Source: a phage
Sequence record: PZ513998.1
Length of the DNA stretch: 56,697 nucleotides
Reading direction: 5' to 3' (one strand)
The notes beneath the pieces were generated by a model, which ran no database searches, was not told the origin of the DNA, and saw only the letters and a list, made by a program, of their open reading frames with translations. Below, piece by piece: positions 1-31,422 of this stretch; the first letter of the stretch is position 1; each line of letters opens with the position of its first letter. A program made the position numbers and the translations under genes.

Positions 1-180
1 ATGGTGATCAGGGAAAAGAAAAACTGGTATTATTGTTCATGCGGTAAGCCGTTTAGATCTGAGGCTCGCAGTAGTAACGGGCTAGTTTTGTTTCGATTAA
101 AGTGCGTATCCTGTGGGATATATTCACCGTGGCGCGGTTCAATTGGGCTATGTGTAGCGACGCTTGACAGCACCACGTAA
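1..180 (+). CDS. hypothetical small Cys-rich protein (zinc-ribbon-like CxCG ... CxxCG)
   Basis: 59-codon ATG..TAA ORF at window start, below the ORF-track size cutoff; translation MVIREKKNWYYCSCGKPF...KCVSCGIY; its first 7 nt ATGGTGA repeat the last 7 nt of ORF 181-546. Confidence 0.3.
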   Translation: MVIREKKNWYYCSCGKPFRSEARSSNGLVLFRLKCVSCGIYSPWRGSIGLCVATLDSTT

Positions 181-546
181 ATGGGTAACTCAGTAAATTG
201 TTTCAAATTTTATGAGGTTTGTAATGAGTTTCTAAATCTACCGGTAGTGGCTATCGGGAGGCCTAGCAACGATTTATCATTACCGGAATTTAATTACTCT
301 TATGGCGTGGTGTTCCATGTTAACAACAAGTTGCTTAGAGTCCTAACCGTCCGATATTCTTATGGACACCGGAGGGCATACGTTAGGATCGACGACGTAA
401 GAACGGATTACCCTAATGTCACTTATCCGGTTTACGAGCCGGTTCTTTTCTCGGGGGAGATCGCCGGCGAATGGATACGAGGCGCAAAAAATTTATACCG
501 GAGTTATAGGGACACGCTAACGAACGTAAGGGGGTCTGTATGGTGA
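181..546 (+). CDS. hypothetical protein
   Basis: 121-aa frame-1 ORF; no motif recognised; lies between the two halves of the portal gene if the window is circularised. Confidence 0.3.
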   Translation: MGNSVNCFKFYEVCNEFLNLPVVAIGRPSNDLSLPEFNYSYGVVFHVNNKLLRVLTVRYSYGHRRAYVRIDDVRTDYPNVTYPVYEPVLFSGEIAGEWIRGAKNLYRSYRDTLTNVRGSVW

Positions 547-19425: not shown

Positions 19426-19995
19426 ATGGCAGAATTAGCATACACTAAAGCGTCTATCTTCCAATCTATCGTTGATGATGTTAGTACGGGTCTACCTAAA
19501 GGAACTTCATTAGATACCCGCGGAGATTTCGAAAATCAATTACGCGACCTTTTCGAAGAAAATAATCTTATGAATGCGCCGGAATGTATCAGCGTCGACT
19601 ACTTCGGGGAAGCATGGGAGATCGTCCAGTCTAGCGAGTTTGATTCTGTTGAGCTAGAAACGCCTTTAGATTTCAGCGGGTGCAAAAGTTCATTAAAATG
19701 TTTGATGATGGAAGCTAACGCATTAATAAGCGCGTCTTGGCGTGAACAAGTGGAAGCCTACATCGAAGAACTGGCCGAAGCACTGGAAGAAGTTGTCGAG
19801 GGTTGCGAGGAGTTCGGAACAATCGACGAACTGGTAATCACTGGCGGGTGCCGTTTCGGTCACATTCCACACCTAAGAGAGTTCGATGCTGGCGACTTTT
19901 CTGTGTGCATGTGGGCGCCGAACGAAGCCGGAGAGTCTGAAATTTATTATAATTTCCGAGGTCTGGAACTGCGCGGGGTTGTATATCATGGGTAA
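19426..19995 (+). CDS. hypothetical acidic protein
   Basis: 189-aa ORF. Confidence 0.3.
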   Translation: MAELAYTKASIFQSIVDDVSTGLPKGTSLDTRGDFENQLRDLFEENNLMNAPECISVDYFGEAWEIVQSSEFDSVELETPLDFSGCKSSLKCLMMEANALISASWREQVEAYIEELAEALEEVVEGCEEFGTIDELVITGGCRFGHIPHLREFDAGDFSVCMWAPNEAGESEIYYNFRGLELRGVVYHG

Positions 19996-20373
19996 GTGGA
20001 CGGTGTGACATACTTTTCATCAGTTCCTAAAGATACCAATTCACGCCGGGCGAGATCCCGGCTTTCTTCGTTCTTGAGTCCGCACGAAAAAGAGTTACAA
20101 CTATCTACGCACGACATACAGACTATTTTAAACCTAGCTAATGCGTTTTACTTCCGAGCTGATCCGGAGAGTAAACCGGCTTACTCAGACAACAAAACTA
20201 TTGTAAGCCTTCGCATATCCGGAATAGTCGAAGATGATCGGGGCTGGCTCATTATCCGCCGGCATTTCCTTAATTCTGGTCAGTGCTGGAAGACGTTGCA
20301 CTTAGAGGTTATTTTTACCCACATAGAAAATCTGACCTTATGTGAGTGTAAAATTCCCTATTTCCCCGATTGA
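19996..20373 (+). CDS. hypothetical protein
   Basis: 125-aa ORF, GTG start. Confidence 0.25.
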   Translation: MDGVTYFSSVPKDTNSRRARSRLSSFLSPHEKELQLSTHDIQTILNLANAFYFRADPESKPAYSDNKTIVSLRISGIVEDDRGWLIIRRHFLNSGQCWKTLHLEVIFTHIENLTLCECKIPYFPD

Positions 20374-20565
20374 ATGATGAAGAATAAAATCACATTAAAC
20401 AGCGGTATGATTTTAATCGCTGACGACGAAAAAGTTACGGTAAACGCAGACGGTTCGCTATTCTGTCCGGCGTGGGATATGCGCTTTATGTTAACTCGTA
20501 ACATTTCATATAATCGAACGGTTACACATCGAGAGGTGAAAAGTTTTGAGCGATTATACAGTTGA
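20374..20565 (+). CDS. hypothetical protein
   Basis: 63-aa ORF. Confidence 0.2.
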   Translation: MMKNKITLNSGMILIADDEKVTVNADGSLFCPAWDMRFMLTRNISYNRTVTHREVKSFERLYS

Positions 20566-22218: not shown

Positions 22219-22539
22219 ATGAAAAATTCAAACGTAGCACTCGCCATTGATTCCGTTTTGGTAAAAAAGAAAATTGATATTATCCCGGTTTTTAAATCGT
22301 TAGAGGAAGAATATCAAATGCGGATACAAGCGTCGTGGTCAGGCATCACCGCGCACACGCCAGAACGACGCATCTACACCCACGGCCACCCGACTACTAA
22401 GATGGCAACAACACCGGAACAACGTACAACGTATCGCCTCCGTCTATTGAAATTCCTACGGTGGCTCTACGCGAACAACTACACAACGGGGCCACTGTTA
22501 GAAATCAAATCGTGGCTAGAGGAGCAAGAGGAATGGTAA
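22219..22539 (+). CDS. hypothetical protein
   Basis: 106-aa ORF. Confidence 0.3.
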   Translation: MKNSNVALAIDSVLVKKKIDIIPVFKSLEEEYQMRIQASWSGITAHTPERRIYTHGHPTTKMATTPEQRTTYRLRLLKFLRWLYANNYTTGPLLEIKSWLEEQEEW

Positions 22540-22887
22540 ATGGTAAAGGTCTTATACAACAGCGAACAAGCGCAAGTAAACCAGTTGCGAGACCAGATTA
22601 AATCGCACACTGAGTCGTTTGAAACAGCGATGGCCGAAGTCGACCAGATCATTAAAGAAAATATCGAGACATACCTAAACGATATATCCGGGTTAATGAT
22701 GTCGATAGTTAGAGTGTATGACAACGCGGAGATTGAGGACAAAGCGGTGGCCTTAGATCTTGTTCACTCTAAAGCGGTAACTCGTTTAGCTGCTATCGAA
22801 GATAAGAGCATAGAACTACGCGCCCATATTGAAAACTTAGTATCCACCATTAAAACCGGAGTGATTAAAAACAATGAAACCATTTGA
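22540..22887 (+). CDS. hypothetical protein
   Basis: 115-aa ORF, predicted helical. Confidence 0.3.
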   Translation: MVKVLYNSEQAQVNQLRDQIKSHTESFETAMAEVDQIIKENIETYLNDISGLMMSIVRVYDNAEIEDKAVALDLVHSKAVTRLAAIEDKSIELRAHIENLVSTIKTGVIKNNETI

Positions 22888-23976
22888 ATGAAACCATTTG
22901 ATAAATTTATTGCTTTTGCAATATCTGAACCAGCAGACCCTAACAATACGACTTCGTTTTCCGCATTAGCTAACGGGACAGAAGACCAACTAAAACAACT
23001 AGGCCGAGAACTAGAAACAAGCCTGAGAAACTTACCGATCGGAGACCCAAGCGCTATGCAGTGGACGCGCCACGGTTTTGCTAAACCCGACGAGAACGCC
23101 GAACCGATCACCGTTGTAGATGAAGTCCTAGGGGACATGGAAGACACACCATACGTTATGATAGACGAAGCGGGTAAATATCTTGTGTTCACTTTCGAAG
23201 AACGTGCTCGAATGCTAAGCCCGACAACGATCAAGGACGAATTAGAGGTTAAAGTAAAAGATTGGATAGAACGAGTTGGTGACACCCCGACAAAACGTGA
23301 ACGTAATGATATGCGCGATGAAATCATCAATGACTTGTTGCCAAAGGCCACAATAAAGCGCACCAAGACATACGCCATGATCATCAAGGGTGTTCTTATT
23401 GTCTTCGCCGGTAGCAATAACATCGGTGAAAAAGTAGCATCGGCCGTAAGAAAGGTAGTAGGGTCTCTCCCAGTAGTACCATGGTTTGAGCATTCGGCCC
23501 TCATTACGGAGTTTCTAAAGAAAATCGCTACGGTAGACTTTGACCCGGAAGATGCAGTAGGCCAAGCGCTAGATAAATTTGAGATTGTCCGTAGTGCTAA
23601 AGTCTCCGCTGAAACCGGTGCGTACACTTTCAAAGATGTTTTTGACATCACGAATGACGTTTCCTTCAAAGAAGCGCTAGGACAAACTAACGGATACTCA
23701 TACCCTCTCGGGATCACCGAAGCGAATTTAGAATTACGACATGACGCCACAGACAGCCCTATCGGTTTTGTTCTTACGGCCAAAGGCGTTTTAAAGAGCG
23801 TAAATTGGAATGACGAGCCGGAAAATATTTTCGACGACTCAGTGTTTGACACGAACGAGGAACGGGAGCGTGCTCGATTTATTTTCTCTACGTGGGACGC
23901 TTACACCTTAGTTACGGCCGTGCTAGGAGCGCTACACAACGCAAACGCAAACCGATTTGTAGAAGACGATATGTAA
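22888..23976 (+). CDS. RdgC-like recombination-associated protein
   Basis: 362 aa; segment KRERNDMRDEIINDLLPKA...AVRKVVGSLPVVPWFEHS matches the RdgC core (…LKDEVLHSLLPRAF…LLRKSLGSLPVVPLSMEN). Confidence 0.6.
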   Translation: MKPFDKFIAFAISEPADPNNTTSFSALANGTEDQLKQLGRELETSLRNLPIGDPSAMQWTRHGFAKPDENAEPITVVDEVLGDMEDTPYVMIDEAGKYLVFTFEERARMLSPTTIKDELEVKVKDWIERVGDTPTKRERNDMRDEIINDLLPKATIKRTKTYAMIIKGVLIVFAGSNNIGEKVASAVRKVVGSLPVVPWFEHSALITEFLKKIATVDFDPEDAVGQALDKFEIVRSAKVSAETGAYTFKDVFDITNDVSFKEALGQTNGYSYPLGITEANLELRHDATDSPIGFVLTAKGVLKSVNWNDEPENIFDDSVFDTNEERERARFIFSTWDAYTLVTAVLGALHNANANRFVEDDM

Positions 23977-24177
23977 ATGAATACAGAACGTAAAAAACTG
24001 GCGTCTAACCTGACAAGACTAAAAGTCGGAGAGTCTTTCTTCGTAGAATGTCTTCCGAAAGACCTAGCCCACGTTCGACGCCTAGCTTATAAGCTGAATA
24101 TTAAGTTATCCATGGTTCGTGTCGATGTCGACCCGATCTACGGTACATTGGGGACGAGGATATCTCGCGTCAAGTAA
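23977..24177 (+). CDS. hypothetical protein
   Basis: 66-aa ORF. Confidence 0.25.
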   Translation: MNTERKKLASNLTRLKVGESFFVECLPKDLAHVRRLAYKLNIKLSMVRVDVDPIYGTLGTRISRVK

Positions 24178-24996
24178 ATGATTAAACTTATGCACTATGC
24201 GGATTACGACTACCGCGACCCAAGTAAACATGAACACCGAATATTCCCGGTTCCGGCCGGAATTAGAGTCGGGGTGATCATTAAACGCGTTAAGTCCATC
24301 GCGAACCCAACAAAGATTGAGGTGTGGCAATACGACGAAAAAGGTAACGCGATTACTGACCTTACCGGCTTCGCCCCACACATCGAGGAAATATGTTTAA
24401 AAGCGTACCAATGGCTTACAGAACATACATTATCTCTATCCGGGATCTCTGATACTGAGTCCGATGCGTATGACTCCGGGATCGTAATCGATGGGTATTT
24501 CCAAGATATCCGTCCCAACTATGGAACGGCCGACGAGACATTAGACCAGTTGGAAGAATGGTTATTAGATGAATTCGAGACGACGGACGAAACTAAAACC
24601 ATATTTCAATATCTGGCCGTTACGACCTACGAGTCAGCGCTTCGCGGTAAAGACGGTAAAGACATTCATCTACGCCGTTCTAACCTACGCCATGCGTTGT
24701 GCGCATCGAACAATGCTGACCACACCCGAGCAAATATCTCTGTCTCGGATAATGTGCCACGTTTTACCGTGTGGCCGATGTCTATGTCACCTCGTTCTTG
24801 GGATATGAGCAAGCCCGGCCCGAACGCTTGGGACTCCATGGCGGGCGTCGCAGCACCAAGAGGTCAACAATTCGAAGACCAGTTAAATACATGCTTTGAG
24901 CGCGGTTTTATCGGCGGGCTAGATATGCGAGCGTTTCACGGCTGGAATACAAGAGTTACCGCGTACCAGTTTATTACTGAGGACGCAACGTTATGA
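24178..24996 (+). CDS. hypothetical protein
   Basis: 272-aa ORF. Confidence 0.3.
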   Translation: MIKLMHYADYDYRDPSKHEHRIFPVPAGIRVGVIIKRVKSIANPTKIEVWQYDEKGNAITDLTGFAPHIEEICLKAYQWLTEHTLSLSGISDTESDAYDSGIVIDGYFQDIRPNYGTADETLDQLEEWLLDEFETTDETKTIFQYLAVTTYESALRGKDGKDIHLRRSNLRHALCASNNADHTRANISVSDNVPRFTVWPMSMSPRSWDMSKPGPNAWDSMAGVAAPRGQQFEDQLNTCFERGFIGGLDMRAFHGWNTRVTAYQFITEDATL

Positions 24997-25764
24997 ATGA
25001 TTGACGGGGAATTGGATATTATGGCACTACCACAGATTAAAGACTTTGCCGGATACGATGGCCCGTTAGACCACCCGATCATTATGCCTGTTCCGTCCCT
25101 CATGAGGGCGGAAGTCTATGTATCCCACGATTTAAAGGATATAGAAATCAACGGCGTTTTTCGCGACGGAACCTATTCTGCGTCGAGATGGACGGGGTTA
25201 TGCCCGGAATTAGAAGAACAATTTTTATTCCTAGCGGAGTTGTTGAAAGACGACTTTAAGGAAAAATGTATCCTCCCATTTAGAGTTGGTCGAGACAAGT
25301 CCGAACTACGGGAAGTCGATAGATTTATCCCGGGGATCACCGGAAACATCGGTTTTGAAGTGTATTTACATGACACCGGGGATTTCGGCACCAAGTATAC
25401 TCAGAAATACTTAGCCAACAGTAAGATGACGGGAGAGAAAGACGACGGCGGGCTAGTATCCGCCTCGATCGTGAGCGCTTACGGGTTCGGGGAACTAACG
25501 CCAGTTTCGCGCGAGGTAATAGACGTTGTGCGGATTTACGAAAGACGTTATCAGATTAGCCACCGACTCAACCTCATGGACGACGAGGGGTATTTGCTGT
25601 CATTAGCTCCCGGAGAACTGAAACGCGTTGACGCGGTACGAACTGCTGAATTCTATTTCGAACAAGGATACCCCAACGTGATTATTCTCAATTCCGGACG
25701 TCCGTACAACTCCGACGCTACCGGACAAATGTATTACTATTCACCGGAGACATACGACTTATGA
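24997..25764 (+). CDS. hypothetical protein
   Basis: 255-aa ORF. Confidence 0.3.
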   Translation: MIDGELDIMALPQIKDFAGYDGPLDHPIIMPVPSLMRAEVYVSHDLKDIEINGVFRDGTYSASRWTGLCPELEEQFLFLAELLKDDFKEKCILPFRVGRDKSELREVDRFIPGITGNIGFEVYLHDTGDFGTKYTQKYLANSKMTGEKDDGGLVSASIVSAYGFGELTPVSREVIDVVRIYERRYQISHRLNLMDDEGYLLSLAPGELKRVDAVRTAEFYFEQGYPNVIILNSGRPYNSDATGQMYYYSPETYDL

Positions 25765-26211
25765 ATGACCGAGCACAAGAAATTAACCCGCGTGTACGGC
25801 GCTAACCTTTGTACTTTTTGCGGTAGAGCATGGGAAGACGGAGAAGAAATCCCCGATTGCGTTGCGCCCCAAGAGGAGGTTCAAAAAACACGCAAGAAAT
25901 TTTTCCGGGCATACTTCCCGGCGCCAACCCACTTTACCGCATGGTTGTTATATGGGAATAACGGTAAAGCGATGGTCGCCTATGCGGATCATCGGGAGGT
26001 GGCTTTACGCATCGGGTATTATTGGACGAGAAACAGAAAAGATATTGTAAAGGTAGAAGAATCGGCGGAGCTAACCCGTTTTGCTGTTTGGCAATCCGTA
26101 CCCTATATTGAGATTAATCCGGTAATTATTAATAAACTAAACCAGTTAAGCAAAAAAGGGGATAACATAATAATATCTCCCGCTAATTTTAAAAAGGCCA
26201 TTTATGACTAA
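25765..26211 (+). CDS. hypothetical protein
   Basis: 148-aa ORF. Confidence 0.3.
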   Translation: MTEHKKLTRVYGANLCTFCGRAWEDGEEIPDCVAPQEEVQKTRKKFFRAYFPAPTHFTAWLLYGNNGKAMVAYADHREVALRIGYYWTRNRKDIVKVEESAELTRFAVWQSVPYIEINPVIINKLNQLSKKGDNIIISPANFKKAIYD

Positions 26212-26844
26212 ATGACTAAGTTAGATGAAGTACGCAAATTATCATACTCGTTCAAACTGCCCGAAGATGTCCGAGAGGGAACCTATGTAGTTTTACGCTT
26301 CGAATCTGAGGTAGGAAAGTGGTATCAGAACGCAAATATTGTTAGCTATATGCTCGGTGTTATCAGCCACACTACTAAGACACAATTCCAAGTTTCTTGT
26401 GAGGGTTTATCCTCCCCGATGCGTTTCGGGCGCGATGGCGGTATCCGCGCAGACAGCAAGGGACAAGTTGGTGGCGCACTAAGAACGTCAGTATTCCTTG
26501 CCGGTAGTGCAGATACCGCAGAAGAATACATCAAGGGCCAAGTAGAACAACACAACGACCCCGAAGTAGTAAGACGCGAGCCAACGTTCCACTTAAAAAA
26601 TGCTGACGATTTGATAGGTATCATCGTCAAGCTGGACAAGCTGATAAACGATGCGACAACGCTATGGGGCGCAATACCTGAAAAATGGAAAGGCCGAGAG
26701 CAACGACGTAGCCGAAACGACCGAATACCGCATGATATGTTAGTAGCGATCTTGTGTAATCCGGACGCATCGGACATATTAGCAGACCTATTTAAGTCCA
26801 TAGCTAAAGCATTCGGAGTATCAACCAAAAAAGAGGAAGAATGA
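26212..26844 (+). CDS. hypothetical protein
   Basis: 210-aa ORF. Confidence 0.3.
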   Translation: MTKLDEVRKLSYSFKLPEDVREGTYVVLRFESEVGKWYQNANIVSYMLGVISHTTKTQFQVSCEGLSSPMRFGRDGGIRADSKGQVGGALRTSVFLAGSADTAEEYIKGQVEQHNDPEVVRREPTFHLKNADDLIGIIVKLDKLINDATTLWGAIPEKWKGREQRRSRNDRIPHDMLVAILCNPDASDILADLFKSIAKAFGVSTKKEEE

Positions 26845-27585
26845 ATGATGATCAATCCCTACGCGGTGGAATTACAGAAATTGAAAGACGCCAAGAAACA
26901 CATTCCAAAGCAGATAAAAGACCAATGGCGTACTCCGGACTGGCTTTTCTACGCGCTAAACTCTTTATACGGCCCGTTCTTGGTAGATTTGTTTTCAGAT
27001 GGACAGAATGCTAAGTGCTCCCGGTATTTCATGGCCGAGGATAATGCGCTACAACAGAACTGGAAAGAAGCACTAGAAGACGCCAAGTTTGAATTCCTTA
27101 TCGATGCAGACTGTGCGGGGTACGATGCTACTGACGATCTAAAGACGGCCAAGTGTTTTGCTAACCCGCCATACAGCCCGGCTAAGTATATCGGTAAAGG
27201 GCGTAAGAATAGAATACCGCTCTGTGGTATGCGAAATATCATGGCTAAGGCCTACGAGGAACACAAGGCCGGTTGCCCTTCATTCTGGTTGCTTAAATCC
27301 GCCACGTCAGAAGATTGGTGGCCTAACGAGACCGCAAGCCAGATAATCCACATCAAGGGTAGAATTGCTTTCGAGAAACCGGTGTGGTTTAGAGATGAGG
27401 TCGTAGACCGCGTGGAAAGTAGTGCTGCTTTCGGTGCGTCCGTTGCTATTTTTAACGGAATAAACGATATTCAAGAACCGGAAGCCTACATCAGTCGAGA
27501 TACCTTAAAATTAATAGGGGAGCCACTTGCTGAAATTAATGCGGAAAGACGCGCCGAGTGGATAGCTAGTTTCGACGATCTATAA
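26845..27585 (+). CDS. DNA N6-adenine methyltransferase (phage Dam family)
   Basis: 246 aa; N-terminal WRTPDWLF motif and catalytic NPPY (CFANPPYSP) as in phage Dam-type MTases. Confidence 0.75.
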   Translation: MMINPYAVELQKLKDAKKHIPKQIKDQWRTPDWLFYALNSLYGPFLVDLFSDGQNAKCSRYFMAEDNALQQNWKEALEDAKFEFLIDADCAGYDATDDLKTAKCFANPPYSPAKYIGKGRKNRIPLCGMRNIMAKAYEEHKAGCPSFWLLKSATSEDWWPNETASQIIHIKGRIAFEKPVWFRDEVVDRVESSAAFGASVAIFNGINDIQEPEAYISRDTLKLIGEPLAEINAERRAEWIASFDDL

Positions 27586-27816
27586 GTGGCCTCCCTATTA
27601 AAAGGTAAATCCCGTGAAAATTCTAAAGTATACATTGCTTGTGTTGATTGTGATTTCTGCGGTTGTCGGCTCATACATGGCAATACGATCAACCTCATGC
27701 GCGGAGTATGGCCAGAAGAACAAAGTTGCGACCGAATACTCATTGTACGAGGGTTGTGTGATAAAAAACTCCGGCCACCCGTAAAAAAGTTCACCTCAAG
27801 CGAGAAAAATAGTTGA
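27586..27816 (+). CDS. hypothetical protein
   Basis: 76-aa ORF, GTG start. Confidence 0.2.
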   Translation: MASLLKGKSRENSKVYIACVDCDFCGCRLIHGNTINLMRGVWPEEQSCDRILIVRGLCDKKLRPPVKKFTSSEKNS

Positions 27817-28350
27817 ATGGATCATAAGTACAAGGTTTCGGACAGGAATACCGTCGCCCGAGTAGTGGGCCGTCATCGCCAATGGTGCGACGCATACGTT
27901 GAGGTAAAACGTATCGTTCGTGAAATGTCCGAAAAAGGGATAACCGATCTGGAAGTTGACGCGATGCCGATCCACGCGCACCTAAACCGGATTGCTGGTT
28001 TCAACTCATTTTTTGCCAACACTCAAAACGAATGGTGGCTAAGATTTAGACCATTTGAAGCCTACCCACAAGATAACGGGAAGACGCTAATTAAGTACCG
28101 CGACTCCCACCCGTGTAACATCTGGCGAAAAGTAGAAAAGATGGAATTCGACCGAGAAGATTTAGAACGAAGAATAAGTCGTATCGAACAAATATTACAA
28201 GGACAGCCGGAAACAATCGCATACGATAGAAAAGTATTTCGAATTCGTAGAACACAAGAATTATCTCAAACCGGCATGTCAAACCGAAAAGCGAGAAAAA
28301 TCGCATGGGAGGAAGCCGGTAGAGAATTCCCGGGAGAAGACCATGTTTGA
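27817..28350 (+). CDS. hypothetical protein
   Basis: 177-aa ORF. Confidence 0.3.
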   Translation: MDHKYKVSDRNTVARVVGRHRQWCDAYVEVKRIVREMSEKGITDLEVDAMPIHAHLNRIAGFNSFFANTQNEWWLRFRPFEAYPQDNGKTLIKYRDSHPCNIWRKVEKMEFDREDLERRISRIEQILQGQPETIAYDRKVFRIRRTQELSQTGMSNRKARKIAWEEAGREFPGEDHV

Positions 28351-28602
28351 ATGTTTGATGAAATACGGAGAATAAAACGGAAATATGAAATGTTGCCTCC
28401 CGGAGATAACATACCTCTGTATGGCGATTTCATTGAGTTTAAGGACGAATTTAACGGAGCAACATATATTGGGGAGGTGTTAGATCACCATTTCAGTTCA
28501 ACACCTCACGATCAAATTTGGAATGTCTTCGTAGACGGCGTGACCATATCTGCGAAACAATCTGAGATAACAAGAGTATACCGACGCAAACGGAGAAAAT
28601 AG
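28351..28602 (+). CDS. hypothetical protein
   Basis: 83-aa ORF. Confidence 0.25.
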   Translation: MFDEIRRIKRKYEMLPPGDNIPLYGDFIEFKDEFNGATYIGEVLDHHFSSTPHDQIWNVFVDGVTISAKQSEITRVYRRKRRK

Positions 28603-29466
28603 ATGAAAGACCTAACAAAACCTTTAGTAGAAATCGATATCGACGTTAGAACGGATTACCTACCTCACGGTGTTTTATCCGTTGATATCAAAACCGAGGA
28701 AATATCTCACGAACTAAAATCGTTACTAGCCGATACATTTGAAGCCATGGTAGTTCGTTTGATTTCTTCGGAGAGAAAATACCAAAGAGGGAACTCTTAC
28801 CAGAACGAAGAACTAGCGCAAAGCGGTGAACTCGCATTCCGGATCGCCGACCGGCTTAAAAATTTCCAAGATATTGACGCCATGAATTTGATTATGTTTT
28901 CCATGTACCATCAGGCGTATTCTGGACAACAAATTCATCTAATGGATAGTTGTATTAAAGATTTCCATCGCGGGGTGGTAGACGCGTATAACTTCATTGA
29001 TTCTACTTGCCCTCCCGGTTGTGCTGAGGAAGCGTTCCGAACACTGCTTATGAGCGAGTTAGTCGACACTACCATGAAAGAACTCGGCAAAGGCGATAAA
29101 ACCTCATACAAGATGTTAGGTGGCGATACGGCCAAGTTATCCGTTAACCCCCCTAAGTCCCTAAAAGCATTTGCGGATCAACTAGGCGACGAGGAGCTTT
29201 ACATCTATAACATTCTAGGCATGAATTTTGTGATCCCATGGTGGGGCGATACCGTAGTAGCGAATAAGGAAAAACAACTACTCGTGTTCCCGGGTGTACC
29301 ATATGTTGATCGAGAGACCGATAGATGGCGTTCACCAGACTGTGAAGATTTCCAAAAAGACGGTCTCGTTATCGGCACAATAGATGTCTCGAAAGAAAGA
29401 GAATATCTCATTGATGGTTTTATTCTATCTCTGTCCGCATTCAACCGCAAACCGCTAGAGGGCTAA
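28603..29466 (+). CDS. hypothetical protein
   Basis: 287-aa ORF. Confidence 0.3.
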   Translation: MKDLTKPLVEIDIDVRTDYLPHGVLSVDIKTEEISHELKSLLADTFEAMVVRLISSERKYQRGNSYQNEELAQSGELAFRIADRLKNFQDIDAMNLIMFSMYHQAYSGQQIHLMDSCIKDFHRGVVDAYNFIDSTCPPGCAEEAFRTLLMSELVDTTMKELGKGDKTSYKMLGGDTAKLSVNPPKSLKAFADQLGDEELYIYNILGMNFVIPWWGDTVVANKEKQLLVFPGVPYVDRETDRWRSPDCEDFQKDGLVIGTIDVSKEREYLIDGFILSLSAFNRKPLEG

Positions 29467-29931
29467 ATGAAATTAGTATACATAGCTGGCCCATACCGCG
29501 CAGACACCAAAGAGGGCGTGGCTGAAAATATCCGTAAGGCACAAGTAATCGGGCTATCTCTAACCACCAACGGACATACATTAGGGGTATTCCCCGTGAT
29601 CCCTCACATGAATACGGCGCACTTTGAGACCCACACTTTAACCGTATCACAAAAATTCAGCGCTTTTATTGAGCCGGTGCCAGATGAATACTGGCTACAA
29701 GGAACAATGGCATTGATGGAAAAATGCGATGCGGTTTTATTGACGCACCCACAAGCCGGCATAACAAGCAAGGGAACGCGGGCGGAGGTTATGCGCGCTA
29801 TTGAGTTGGGTATTCCTGTTTATGACCACATAAACGGTCTACTATCTGACCTTAGAGACGAATCAACGCCTCTACGAAGTATTAATGTTTTGAATGACAA
29901 GCGAGAATTTCTCGGGGCGGTTGATGAGTGA
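29467..29931 (+). CDS. nucleoside 2-deoxyribosyltransferase-like protein (DUF1937/DUF4406-type)
   Basis: 154 aa; N-terminal KLVYIAGPYRAD and C-terminal CDAVLLTHPQAGITSKGTRAEVMRAIELGIPVYD typical of this Rossmann-like family. Confidence 0.45.
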   Translation: MKLVYIAGPYRADTKEGVAENIRKAQVIGLSLTTNGHTLGVFPVIPHMNTAHFETHTLTVSQKFSAFIEPVPDEYWLQGTMALMEKCDAVLLTHPQAGITSKGTRAEVMRAIELGIPVYDHINGLLSDLRDESTPLRSINVLNDKREFLGAVDE

Positions 29932-29969
29932 ATGACAAGCGAGAATTTCTCGGGGCGGTTGATGAGTGA
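29894..29969 (+). repeat. perfect tandem duplication, 2 x 38 bp (ATGACAAGCGAGAATTTCTCGGGGCGGTTGATGAGTGA)
   Basis: copy 1 at 29894-29931 is the 3' end of ORF 29467-29931; copy 2 at 29932-29969 is the 5' end of the next frame-1 ORF, read in a different codon phase. Confidence 0.9.
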
Positions 29970-30147
29970 TGTAGCGTACTTAATAGTCGTTGCGATGTGT
30001 GCCTTAGTTATAACACTAGGGATACGGAAATAAATGCCCCTTTACTTTATTATCAAAACCGGCAAGACCGCTCACCGTCTTCACCACCCCAACCGCACAA
30101 CCTTTGTCCTAGGCAGTTATGAAATAAAACTTGGTCGGCCGTTTTAG

Positions 30148-30402
30148 ATGTCCTTTTGGGCTAAAATCAAGGCGATGGCTCTAGGGGTCGTCGCCTTTTT
30201 TGTCCTCCTATTCCTAACGTGGCGTAAAGGAAAACAGGACGGAAAGAACGAGAAAGTTATCGAAGATATTATCGATAACCATATTGAACAAGAACGAGTT
30301 AATGAGGTAAAACAAGATGTCGATTCGGGGATTAATAGCTTACCGGACGGCGGTAGTTCTGATCGTCTTCGCAGTGGTTGGTTGCGTAAAGACCGTAAAT
30401 AA
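30148..30402 (+). CDS. putative lysis-associated membrane protein (holin- or spanin-like)
   Basis: 84 aa; single N-terminal TM helix (AMALGVVAFFVLLFLTW) then charged helical tail; next to putative lysin. Confidence 0.3.
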   Translation: MSFWAKIKAMALGVVAFFVLLFLTWRKGKQDGKNEKVIEDIIDNHIEQERVNEVKQDVDSGINSLPDGGSSDRLRSGWLRKDRK

Positions 30403-31107
30403 ATGGCGAATTTAAAGCCTAAAGGTATCAGACAAAATAACCCGGGTAACTTGGAGTGGGGATCTCCTTGGCAGGGGCTAGTACCGAAAGCGGAGAGAAC
30501 GTCTCCTCGCTTTTGTGAATTCGTAAATCCGGTTTATGGTATTCGTGCGATCGCAGTAACGTTAATCACGTATTACGATAAGCGCAAATCAAAGAACGGC
30601 TCTCGCATCGACTCCGCGCGTGAAATCGTTGAGCGTTGGGCGCCGGGGTCGGAGAAAGGGAATAATACCAACGTATACGCTAAAAACTTAGCAGACCTAC
30701 TAGGCGTTGGCCCGGACGACGAAGTTATCGATATGCACGACTACGACCAGTTGTTTTTATTGGTGTCAGGCATCATCGGTACAGAAAACGGCTTCAATGG
30801 GCCACTCAAAGGCAAAACGGTAAACACTTGGTATTCTGACGAGACTATCGAAGAAGCCCTCCGTATGGCCGGGGTGACTAAGAAACCGAAAGTCGTTAAT
30901 TCTACTGCAACCGTAGCAGCCGGCACCGCAGCACTAGGCGTCGCTCAGTTGGTTGAGGTCGTCCAGCCGGTCAAGGAGGCGGTACACAATGCCTCGGGAG
31001 ACCTTTCATCTGGCGACTACGCTAGAATCTTCCTCGGCGTCGCCACCGTCGGGATCGGGATTTACCTCGGCTATGTCCGCTACCGTAAATTCAAATTGGG
31101 GCAGTGA
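30403..31107 (+). CDS. putative cell-wall hydrolase (endolysin-like) with C-terminal membrane anchor
   Basis: 234 aa; N-terminal IRQNNPGNLEW motif; C-terminal hydrophobic helix RIFLGVATVGIGIYLGYV; flanked by small TM proteins. Confidence 0.3.
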   Translation: MANLKPKGIRQNNPGNLEWGSPWQGLVPKAERTSPRFCEFVNPVYGIRAIAVTLITYYDKRKSKNGSRIDSAREIVERWAPGSEKGNNTNVYAKNLADLLGVGPDDEVIDMHDYDQLFLLVSGIIGTENGFNGPLKGKTVNTWYSDETIEEALRMAGVTKKPKVVNSTATVAAGTAALGVAQLVEVVQPVKEAVHNASGDLSSGDYARIFLGVATVGIGIYLGYVRYRKFKLGQ

Positions 31108-31422
31108 ATGGCGGGTAGAGATGGAGGTACGGGAGGCGTTCGCATTGACTTGGCGATCAATATCCCGACTATCCTTTCGCTAATAGCAGCGTTGTGTAGC
31201 GGTATAATGTGGGTTAATAACCAGTTTAGCAATGTTAGAAACGATGTTTTGTTGGTCACGGCTGACGTTAGAGTCCTAGAACAACGAACAACGCAAGCCG
31301 AGCGGGAAATCGCCGATATAAAACATAATACCGCACAACAAATAAACCAGTTTCGAGGTGAAGTTCGCGAAGACCTTAGAGACATTAAAACTAGCGTTCA
31401 AAAACTCGCAGATAAAAAATAG
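31108..31422 (+). CDS. membrane-anchored coiled-coil protein (spanin-like)
   Basis: 104 aa; TM helix IPTILSLIAALCSGIMWV followed by heptad-like charged helix. Confidence 0.3.
   Translation: MAGRDGGTGGVRIDLAINIPTILSLIAALCSGIMWVNNQFSNVRNDVLLVTADVRVLEQRTTQAEREIADIKHNTAQQINQFRGEVREDLRDIKTSVQKLADKK

What the first reader, a model, noticed from the sequence alone, without database searches (positions are those of the whole stretch)
26845..27585. Phage Dam-type N6-adenine methyltransferase
WRTPDWLF and NPPY motifs identify an orphan adenine methyltransferase with no cognate restriction gene recognised nearby. It likely protects phage DNA from host restriction or serves in regulation or packaging.
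Basis: partly seen in the sequence, partly recalled or inferred. Interest (0 to 1): 0.35.

Follow-up and report, generated by a model that had tools for sequence, protein, structure and literature searches.

The report
Orphan phage DNA adenine methyltransferase gene
This is an ordinary gene, already annotated in public records, for a phage enzyme that methylates adenines in DNA; it is conserved in Chi-like phages and has no partner restriction enzyme, and which DNA sequence it marks is still unknown.

Summary
Window 26845-27585 (+) is an intact 246-codon ORF carrying WRTPDWLF (aa 28-35) and NPPY (aa 107-110). It passes the curated thresholds of Pfam PF05869 'Dam' (104 bits, cutoff 28.1) and NCBIfam TIGR01712 'phage N-6-adenine-methyltransferase' (117 bits, cutoff 97). 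It also matches PHROG 111 (E 1e-61).

The window is Escherichia phage E21 (Casjensviridae, Lavrentievavirus). The gene is E21 28177-28914, deposited as 'putative DNA methyltransferase'. At least 28 phage records carry it at 99% identity or more. Other Casjensviridae genera have orthologues at 40-50% identity in the same position downstream of rdgC.

None of the nine flanking ORFs scanned matches a restriction enzyme, so 'orphan' stands.

Two qualifications apply. First, it is not an E. coli/T4-type Dam. Within PF05869 it belongs to a divergent subfamily that aligns with the GATC-specific T1 and VT2 Dam enzymes only over the N-terminal 60-70 residues. GATC specificity therefore cannot be assumed. 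Second, RefSeq calls it 'phosphoadenosine phosphosulfate reductase', which is an error carried over from a fusion-protein family.

In passing: the window is not a natural molecule. Every ORF has been flipped to the + strand, gene overlaps duplicated and spacers deleted.

Verdict: already known, low interest.

The parts
26845..27585 (+). Coding sequence of the orphan DNA N6-adenine methyltransferase (246 codons plus stop). GenBank and RefSeq use an alternative start at 26848.
   Evidence: ORF. PF05869 104 bits, TIGR01712 117 bits, phrog_111 E 1e-61. No base differences from E21 28174-28914 apart from the artificial junction.
26920..26949 (+). N-terminal family signature DQWRTPDWLF (aa 26-35). 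D26, W28, T30 and P31 are invariant. I interpret it as the motif-X-like AdoMet-contacting element found in gamma-class-like amino-methyltransferases; that reading is inference.
   Evidence: These columns are invariant in the 42-sequence alignment and in the alignment that adds T1 Dam and VT2 Dam.
26980..27009 (+). LVDLFSDGQN (aa 46-55): strand beta-1 and the following loop. It occupies the place of the usual glycine-rich motif I. D48 and N55 are invariant across the whole family; F50 and D52 are invariant within the Chi-like/lambdoid subfamily.
   Evidence: Invariant columns. Strand 45-48 in the AlphaFold2 model. The assignment to cofactor binding is inference.
27070..27150 (+). Variable insertion (aa 76-102, two helices in the model) between the conserved W73 and the catalytic motif. 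It is absent from T1/VT2 Dam and from lambdoid relatives, and some relatives carry Cys-rich segments in its place.
   Evidence: Alignment gaps. Helices 73-90 and 96-100. Pfam splits the match into two stretches.
27163..27177 (+). Catalytic motif IV, NPPYS (aa 107-111), invariant in all homologues examined.
   Evidence: Located just after strand 103-106 of the model. Altering the equivalent DPPY motif to APPY abolished activity in the Dam/DpnII-like adenine methyltransferases Hia5, Hin1523 and Nme1821.
27457..27582 (+). C-terminal extension (aa 205-246) with helices 218-231 and 233-242. It is specific to the Chi-like/lambdoid subfamily and is a candidate DNA-contacting element.
   Evidence: T1 and VT2 Dam end before this region. 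Secondary structure. The DNA-contacting role is inference only.
26833..26844 (+). Shine-Dalgarno-like GAGG and the stop codon of the upstream gene. In the natural genome the two genes overlap (ATGA), which implies translational coupling. In the window the overlap has been artificially duplicated.
   Evidence: Sequence. The 4-base insertion relative to E21 at this junction is shown.

Best explanation
The ORF encodes an active, stand-alone (orphan) S-adenosylmethionine-dependent DNA N6-adenine methyltransferase of the phage 'Dam' family (PF05869/TIGR01712).

In the natural phage E21 genome it sits in the rightward block of DNA-metabolism genes, downstream of rdgC, and its start overlaps the stop of the upstream gene. 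It is most likely made during replication. There it would methylate adenines in a short target sequence on newly made phage DNA. Progeny genomes would then be fully modified and escape adenine-methylation-sensitive restriction systems in the next host. This would complement the genome's marked avoidance of 6-bp palindromes.

Shown here: family membership, conservation of the catalytic and cofactor motifs, a confident methyltransferase-like fold, absence of a partner nuclease, and conserved gene position across Casjensviridae genera.

Inferred: enzymatic activity, expression timing, the anti-restriction role and the target sequence. GATC is the leading guess by analogy with T1 and VT2 Dam, but it is unproven.
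For: - Profile matches are above curated cutoffs; PHROG and PADLOC methyltransferase matches agree.
- D26, W28, T30, P31, D48, N55, W73, NPPYS 107-111, W158, G172, R173 and F176 are invariant, even against the GATC-specific T1 and VT2 Dam enzymes.
- The AlphaFold2 model has mean pLDDT 94 and pTM 0.90.
- The nearest solved folds are all N6-adenine class-I methyltransferases: CAPAM/PCIF1, TrmM, type I M subunits, CamA and M.TaqI. The nearest viral models are phage 'DNA N-6-adenine-methyltransferase' proteins.
- None of the nine flanking ORFs scanned matches a restriction enzyme, and none is annotated in the genome record.
- At least 28 phage records carry the protein at 99% identity or more. Orthologues at 40-50% identity occur in Chivirus (YSD1) and Sharonstreetvirus (pAEv1812), downstream of rdgC on the same strand.
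- Eleven of 64 six-base palindromes are absent from the natural genome, against 0.7 expected. Non-palindromic hexamers behave as expected. This shows selection by type II restriction.
- Published annotation of Chivirus orthologues gives the same reading.
Against: - No methylation data exist for this phage group in the literature I could search.
- Enterobacterial hosts such as E. coli and Salmonella carry their own GATC-specific Dam. That Proteus does too is my own background knowledge. A GATC-specific phage enzyme would therefore be partly redundant.
- The protein is a low-scoring, insertion-bearing member of the family. BLASTP aligns it with the characterised GATC enzymes only over the N-terminal 60-70 residues, so specificity cannot be transferred.
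- Conservation in a fixed position across several genera of one phage family looks more like a housekeeping role than a sporadically acquired anti-defence gene.
- Similarity to solved structures is weak (TM 0.3-0.4).
Confidence: 0.85

Rival explanations
1. The enzyme is a GATC-specific Dam mimic, and its main job is not anti-restriction. Instead it keeps rapidly replicating phage DNA fully methylated. That would keep host systems that read hemimethylated GATC (MutH nicking, SeqA binding) away from phage DNA, or it would time phage gene expression.
For: - T1 Dam and VT2 Dam, both core PF05869 members, are recorded as GATC-specific. A relative only 35% identical to T1 Dam still methylates GATC, with off-target activity.
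- GATC is not strongly avoided: 215 sites in the natural genome, and 211 observed against 273 expected in the window.
- The gene is conserved and syntenic within a DNA-metabolism operon that also holds an RdgC-like protein.
Against: - GATC sites are spread as expected at random. No 300-bp window holds more than four, and the largest gap (1,265 bp) is below the roughly 1,460 bp expected, so no regulatory clusters are evident.
- Similarity to the GATC enzymes detectable by BLASTP is limited to the cofactor-binding N-terminus.
- The subfamily-specific insertions next to the catalytic motif could change the target.
Confidence: 0.25
2. The enzyme has very relaxed or no sequence specificity, like the prophage enzymes Hia5 and M.EcoGII. 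It would blanket phage DNA with m6A to block many restriction enzymes at once.
For: - The protein is small and has no obvious separate target-recognition domain.
- Prophage- and plasmid-encoded methyltransferases are often described as promiscuous.
- A T1 Dam relative shows substantial off-target activity.
Against: - Hia5 and its relatives belong to a different family. Their closest structural homologues are M1.DpnII and E. coli Dam, with FxGxG and DPPY motifs, so the analogy is not by homology.
- The EcoRI/HindIII RFLP digests of the close relative RP6 gave banding patterns. I expect that would not happen under blanket adenine methylation, because, from my own knowledge, both enzymes are blocked by m6A in their sites.
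- The genome's strong palindrome avoidance would be unnecessary if all adenines were protected.
Confidence: 0.07
3. The protein is a phosphoadenosine phosphosulfate (PAPS) reductase, as named in the RefSeq records of E21, pPM_01 and PM87.
For: - RefSeq product names.
- A match to phrog_33262 'phosphoadenosine phosphosulfate reductase', E 2.2e-38.
Against: - The phrog_33262 match covers only profile positions 285-482 of 495. That is the methyltransferase part of a fusion family. The window protein has no residues to fill the N-terminal reductase part.
- Pfam finds no PAPS-reductase domain, only PF05869.
- The original GenBank records call it a DNA methyltransferase.
Confidence: 0.01
4. The protein methylates RNA rather than DNA, or it is catalytically dead and serves a structural or regulatory role.
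For: The best matches among solved structures include the mRNA cap adenosine N6-methyltransferase CAPAM/PCIF1 and the tRNA enzyme TrmM. Giant-virus PCIF1-like proteins also appear in the viral structure search.
Against: - Those matches are weak (TM 0.3-0.4, 10-12% identity) and mainly reflect the shared amino-methyltransferase core.
- Every characterised PF05869 member I could trace acts on DNA.
- All catalytic and cofactor positions are invariant, which argues against an inactive protein.
Confidence: 0.03

Closest known systems
Orthologues in Chi-like phages (Casjensviridae), e.g. Escherichia phage E21 QGF21928, Proteus phage pPM_01, Salmonella phage YSD1 gene YSD1_49c, Aeromonas phage pAEv1812 gp41
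   Same: Identical to the E21 gene apart from one extra N-terminal codon. Identity is 99-100% within Lavrentievavirus and 40-50% in other genera. Length, motifs and position downstream of rdgC on the same strand are the same.
   Different: Nothing of substance. The variable insertion at aa 76-102 differs between genera. None of these orthologues has been characterised experimentally, as far as I could find.
Phage T1 Dam (M.EcoT1Dam) and VT2-Sakai Dam (M.EcoVT2Dam): GATC-specific orphan methyltransferases and core members of PF05869
   Same: They share the Pfam family and the invariant residues D26, W28, T30, P31, D48, N55, W73, NPPYS, W158, G172, R173 and F176. They are also phage-borne and orphan.
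   Different: - They score 218-236 bits on PF05869, against 104 bits here.
- BLASTP aligns only the N-terminal 60-70 residues, at 25-39% identity.
- The window protein has extra segments after NPPYS (about aa 113-128) and around aa 180-197, a C-terminal helical extension, and a lineage-specific insertion at aa 76-102.
- Its target sequence is therefore not known.
Methyltransferases of about 208-290 aa in lambdoid prophages and phages of Escherichia, Yersinia, Salmonella and Klebsiella, annotated 'phage N-6-adenine-methyltransferase'
   Same: 35-44% identity over more than 90% of the length. They share the same subfamily-specific segments after NPPYS and in the WF(R)P...SAGFG region.
   Different: They lack the aa 76-102 insertion, and many have long, unrelated C-terminal tails. 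They sit in temperate phages, often in the nin-like region. I found no experimental specificity for them either.
E. coli Dam / T4 Dam / M.DpnII (PF02086, alpha class) and their non-specific relatives Hia5, Hin1523 and Nme1821
   Same: They catalyse the same reaction (N6-adenine methylation of DNA) and have a (D/N)PPY catalytic motif. Some are phage- or prophage-borne and orphan.
   Different: They belong to a different family with a different architecture: an FxGxG motif I and a large inserted recognition domain. The window protein does not match PF02086.

Membership tests
Phage N6-adenine methyltransferase ('Dam') family, Pfam PF05869 / NCBIfam TIGR01712 | Score above the curated family thresholds | tested here: met
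   PF05869: 104 bits against 28.1. TIGR01712: 117.1 bits against 97.05, an equivalog model.
Phage N6-adenine methyltransferase ('Dam') family, Pfam PF05869 / NCBIfam TIGR01712 | N-terminal D-x-W-x-T-P signature and the D48/N55 positions | tested here: met
   D26, W28, T30, P31, D48 and N55 are invariant in the alignment with T1 and VT2 Dam.
Phage N6-adenine methyltransferase ('Dam') family, Pfam PF05869 / NCBIfam TIGR01712 | Catalytic motif IV, (N/D)PPY | tested here: met
   NPPYS at aa 107-111, invariant in 42 homologues and in T1/VT2 Dam.
Phage N6-adenine methyltransferase ('Dam') family, Pfam PF05869 / NCBIfam TIGR01712 | Class-I (Rossmann-like) AdoMet-dependent methyltransferase fold | tested here: met
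   AlphaFold2 model with pLDDT 94 and pTM 0.90. Foldseek hits are exclusively amino-methyltransferases, though weak in the PDB (TM 0.3-0.4). Against phage Dam models, TM normalised to the target reaches 0.85. This rests on a prediction, not a solved structure.
Phage N6-adenine methyltransferase ('Dam') family, Pfam PF05869 / NCBIfam TIGR01712 | AdoMet-dependent formation of m6A in DNA | not testable with these tools
   Needs an enzyme assay or methylome sequencing.
GATC-specific Dam enzymes (functional class: T1 Dam, VT2 Dam, E. coli Dam) | Methylation of the adenine in GATC | not testable with these tools
   Similarity to T1/VT2 Dam detectable by BLASTP is confined to the N-terminal 60-70 residues. 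GATC frequency and spacing are uninformative.
E. coli/T4 Dam family (Pfam PF02086, alpha class) | Match to the MethyltransfD12 profile, with an FxGxG motif I ahead of an inserted recognition domain | tested here: not met
   Apart from a sub-threshold DUF5132 match, only PF05869 was found at E up to 1. There is no FxGxG motif in the sequence. Family features taken.
Type II restriction-modification system | A cognate restriction endonuclease gene next to the methyltransferase | tested here: not met
   The nine flanking ORFs scanned have no nuclease or restriction match in Pfam, PHROGs or PADLOC, apart from an RdgC-like protein. No such gene is annotated in E21, YSD1 or pAEv1812. Remote homologues among the 'unknown function' neighbours cannot be fully excluded.
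PAPS reductase (RefSeq product name) | A PAPS-reductase / ATP-pyrophosphatase domain | tested here: not met
   No such Pfam domain is present. The phrog_33262 match covers only the C-terminal methyltransferase part of that fusion profile, positions 285-482 of 495.

The most novel reading that the evidence does not exclude
The Chi-like branch of PF05869 may recognise a target other than GATC. Its extra segments flank the catalytic loop, and its genus-specific insertion at aa 76-102 is replaced by Cys-rich segments in some relatives. That hypervariable insertion could act as a swappable mini recognition module in a family usually regarded as lacking one.
Probability: 0.2. Interest if true: 0.4.

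Novelty: already known. Interest (0 to 1): 0.1.

Why it matters
It matters little as a discovery. The gene is already deposited as a DNA (adenine) methyltransferase in dozens of near-identical phage genomes, and the literature on Chi-like phages gives the same interpretation.

Three practical points follow:
1. The RefSeq name 'phosphoadenosine phosphosulfate reductase' on several of these genomes is wrong and should not be propagated.
2. Lavrentievaviruses such as E21, pPM_01 and RP6 are being developed as therapeutic phages. Their self-methylation, together with palindrome avoidance, bears on host range across restricting strains.
3. No PDB chain matched by sequence, and fold matches to solved structures were weak. 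The Chi-like branch also has no known target. A single methylome run would settle the target cheaply.

Tried and rejected
- **Hia5 and the 'non-specific adenine methyltransferases'.** I first recalled these as members of this family. Reading the paper showed that their closest structural homologues are M1.DpnII and E. coli Dam, so I dropped the analogy.
- **M.EcoGIX (target SAY).** I considered it as a possible characterised relative of the lambdoid homologues. It is a plasmid-borne, single-strand-specific enzyme and is not relevant.
- **Solved structures.** A sequence search of the PDB found nothing meaningful: only chance beta-2-microglobulin hits at E about 0.3.
- **GATC signals.** I looked for GATC clusters or GATC-free tracts in the natural genome as a sign of a regulatory or packaging role. 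There were none.
- **Experimental data for Casjensviridae.** I searched the literature for methylation or restriction data. I found only annotation statements and one EcoRI/HindIII RFLP for RP6.
- **JS26 transposon study.** It mentions a Dcm-like methyltransferase next to rdgC but gives nothing on a PF05869 gene, and its tables are not held.
- **Papers not held.** The Murphy et al. 2013 review and Fang et al. 2012 could not be read.
- **RNA genes.** Rfam and tRNA scans of the whole window were empty.
- **Opposite-strand ORFs.** The ORFs of 41-102 aa on the opposite strand under the gene were treated as spurious and not followed up.

Full report
**What is at the coordinates.** Window 26845-27585 (+) is one uninterrupted ORF of 246 codons. 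The short ORFs on the opposite strand (41-102 aa) were not tested and are treated as by-products of the coding frame. No Rfam family or tRNA was found anywhere in the window.

**Family assignment.**
- Pfam PF05869 'DNA N-6-adenine-methyltransferase (Dam)': E 9.1e-30, 104 bits against a gathering score of 28.1. The match is split into two stretches.
- NCBIfam TIGR01712 'phage N-6-adenine-methyltransferase' (equivalog model): 117 bits against a cutoff of 97.
- PHROG 111 'DNA methyltransferase': E 1e-61.
- PADLOC type II methyltransferase models: E 1.6e-44.

There is no match to the E. coli/T4 Dam family.

**Where the window comes from.**
- The region is 99.3% identical to Escherichia phage E21 (MN604053 / NC_052983; Casjensviridae, Lavrentievavirus). 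It is 95-98% identical to about 25 further records, mostly Proteus phages such as pPM_01, PM87, RP6 and Q29.
- The gene corresponds to E21 28177-28914, deposited as 'putative DNA methyltransferase'.
- At least 28 phage records encode the protein at 99% identity or more, and 358 records hold a recognisable relative.
- The wider protein database returned 389 homologues with E up to 0.001; all 120 listed carry PF05869.

**The window is not a natural molecule.** A block-by-block comparison with E21 shows four kinds of change:
- Every ORF that is on the minus strand in the phage has been individually reverse-complemented, while its place in the gene order is kept.
- Overlapping stop/start junctions such as ATGA have been duplicated so that ORFs abut.
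- Most intergenic spacers have been deleted, for example 14 nt just after this gene's stop and 56 nt before the ORF at 27817.
- One segment (E21 19875-20413) has been moved to the start of the window.

The coding sequence of the finding is untouched. Strand relations, promoters, terminators and gene spacing in the window mean nothing, however, so I took context from the natural records. There the gene lies in a rightward block (E21 22366-31325) that starts with small unknown genes and an RdgC-like gene. The block ends with a protein resembling a nucleoside 2-deoxyribosyltransferase and is flanked on both sides by leftward genes. The gene's start overlaps the stop of the upstream gene (ATGATGA), which suggests translational coupling. 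GenBank uses the second ATG (window 26848). Homologue N-termini cannot decide between the two starts.

**Orphan status.**
- The five upstream and four downstream ORFs scanned match nothing in Pfam except RdgC and two domains of unknown function.
- In PHROGs they match only 'unknown function' families, RdgC and the deoxyribosyltransferase-like family.
- They match nothing in PADLOC.
- No restriction enzyme is annotated in E21, or next to the gene in YSD1 and pAEv1812.

**Conservation and gene position.** Orthologues at 40-50% identity occur in other Casjensviridae genera, including Chivirus (YSD1), Sharonstreetvirus (pAEv1812) and Providencia, Klebsiella and Erwinia phages. In YSD1 and pAEv1812 the gene sits a few kilobases downstream of rdgC on the same strand, as in E21. 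It is thus a stable part of the family's DNA-metabolism module rather than a sporadic insertion.

**Anatomy of the protein.**
- An alignment of 42 homologues shows 35 invariant positions.
- When the GATC-specific T1 Dam and VT2-Sakai Dam are added, 18 positions remain invariant: D26, W28, T30, P31, G43, D48, N55, L69, W73, N107-P-P-Y-S111, W158, G172, R173 and F176. The catalytic motif IV and the presumed cofactor-binding positions are therefore intact, which argues for an active enzyme.
- The AlphaFold2 model is confident (pLDDT 94, pTM 0.90).
- No solved structure is close. The sequence search of the PDB was empty. Foldseek gives only weak matches (TM 0.3-0.4), all to N6-adenine class-I methyltransferases: CAPAM/PCIF1, TrmM, type I M subunits, CamA and M.TaqI.
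- Against predicted viral structures, the best hits are phage 'DNA N-6-adenine-methyltransferase' proteins.

**A divergent branch, so specificity is open.**
- T1 Dam and VT2 Dam score 236 and 218 bits on PF05869. They are recorded as GATC-specific.
- The window protein scores 104 bits. BLASTP aligns it with them only over the N-terminal 60-70 residues, at 25-39% identity.
- Compared with them, it has extra segments right after NPPYS (about aa 113-128) and around aa 180-197, plus a C-terminal helical extension. It shares all three with lambdoid-prophage relatives.
- It also has an insertion at aa 76-102 that varies between genera. In some relatives this position holds a Cys-rich, zinc-ribbon-like segment.
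- These elements surround the catalytic loop and are the natural candidates for DNA recognition. GATC is therefore a reasonable guess, not a conclusion.
- One relative 35% identical to T1 Dam does methylate GATC, with marked off-target activity. This shows both that specificity can persist at low identity and that fidelity in this family can be loose.

**Indirect evidence on function.**
- The natural genome has 215 GATC sites, spaced as expected at random, with no clusters or long gaps. In the window, GATC is only mildly under-represented: 211 observed against 273 expected.
- Eleven of the 64 six-base palindromes are absent, against 0.7 expected. Non-palindromic hexamers behave as expected: 55 absent against 49.5 expected. 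The phage is clearly under selection from type II restriction, which fits a protective methyltransferase as a second line of defence.
- EcoRI/HindIII digests of the close relative RP6 gave RFLP banding patterns. Both enzymes are blocked by m6A in their sites, which is my own background knowledge. This argues against blanket, sequence-independent adenine methylation.
- I found no methylome or enzymology for any Casjensviridae orthologue. Published comments are annotation-level and propose escape from host restriction.

**Mis-annotation.** RefSeq records for E21, pPM_01 and PM87 name the product 'phosphoadenosine phosphosulfate reductase'. This traces to phrog_33262, a fusion family. The window protein matches only its C-terminal methyltransferase part, profile positions 285-482 of 495. 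Pfam finds no reductase domain. The name is wrong.

**Verdict.** This is an already annotated, orphan, phage-family DNA N6-adenine methyltransferase. Its most likely role is self-methylation of replicating phage DNA for protection against restriction, with about 0.6 confidence within the 0.85 I give to 'active orphan DNA m6A methyltransferase'. A GATC-directed housekeeping or regulatory role is the main rival. The only open questions are its target sequence and the role of its variable insertion. Interest is low.

Noticed in passing
window 1-56697 (whole window): The window is an artificially rearranged copy of Escherichia phage E21 (MN604053). Each ORF is individually flipped to the + strand with gene order kept. 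Overlapping junctions (e.g. ATGA) are duplicated, and most intergenic spacers are deleted or altered. E21 19875-20413 has been moved to window 1-546. Most minus-strand blocks are 100% identical to E21 and the rest at least 98%. Strand, spacing and regulatory signals in this window are therefore not biological.
   Followed up: yes
window 26845-27585; RefSeq NC_052983 YP_009998139, and also NC_028812 and NC_052981: RefSeq names this methyltransferase 'phosphoadenosine phosphosulfate reductase'. The name appears to come from phrog_33262, a reductase-methyltransferase fusion family. This protein matches only the methyltransferase part of that family.
   Followed up: yes
whole genome (natural E21, L003+L004; similar counts in the window): Strong avoidance of 6-bp palindromes. 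Eleven of 64 are absent against 0.7 expected. Examples (observed vs expected): TACGTA 0 vs 12.6, CTCGAG 0 vs 8.3, AGTACT 0 vs 6.0, GGTACC 1 vs 12.1, GGATCC 1 vs 8.8. Non-palindromic hexamers are as expected. The 4-mer TGCA is at 0.46 of expectation in the window.
   Followed up: partly
window 27586-27816 (E21 28929-29159, unannotated gap in the GenBank record): The block placed after the methyltransferase is a 76-aa GTG-start ORF with no family match. In another frame, 27614-27784 encodes a 56-aa protein with a hydrophobic N-terminal helix (MKILKYTLLVLIVISAVVGSYMA...), which looks more like a real small membrane protein. In E21, the 14 nt deleted just after the methyltransferase stop form half of an imperfect GC-rich hairpin (AGGGGGCC-TTGT-GGCCTCCCT).
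   Followed up: no
window 29467-29931: The last gene of the same natural operon matches phrog_355 'nucleoside 2-deoxyribosyltransferase' (E 1.4e-20) and, weakly, DUF7768/DUF1937. Together with the methyltransferase, it could hint at further nucleotide or DNA modification chemistry. Not examined.
   Followed up: no
homologues P0011 and P0030, aligned to window aa 76-102 (nt 27070-27150): At the position of the genus-specific insertion, some relatives carry Cys-rich segments (e.g. CRDCDGTGHFYGDAELGTCPC) that resemble a small zinc ribbon. The site seems to be a hotspot for swapping modules.
   Followed up: no
window 24178-26844 and 27817-29466: Six consecutive ORFs around the methyltransferase (272, 255, 148, 210, 177 and 287 aa) match only PHROG families of unknown function, and four of those matches are full-length over the profile. 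They have no Pfam or PADLOC hits.
   Followed up: partly
records listed: Near-identical genomes (95-99%) are deposited as phages of Proteus, Escherichia, Salmonella, Providencia, Pseudomonas, Enterococcus and Staphylococcus. Such a host spread is implausible for one species-level cluster and suggests mislabelled hosts or contamination in some submissions.
   Followed up: no
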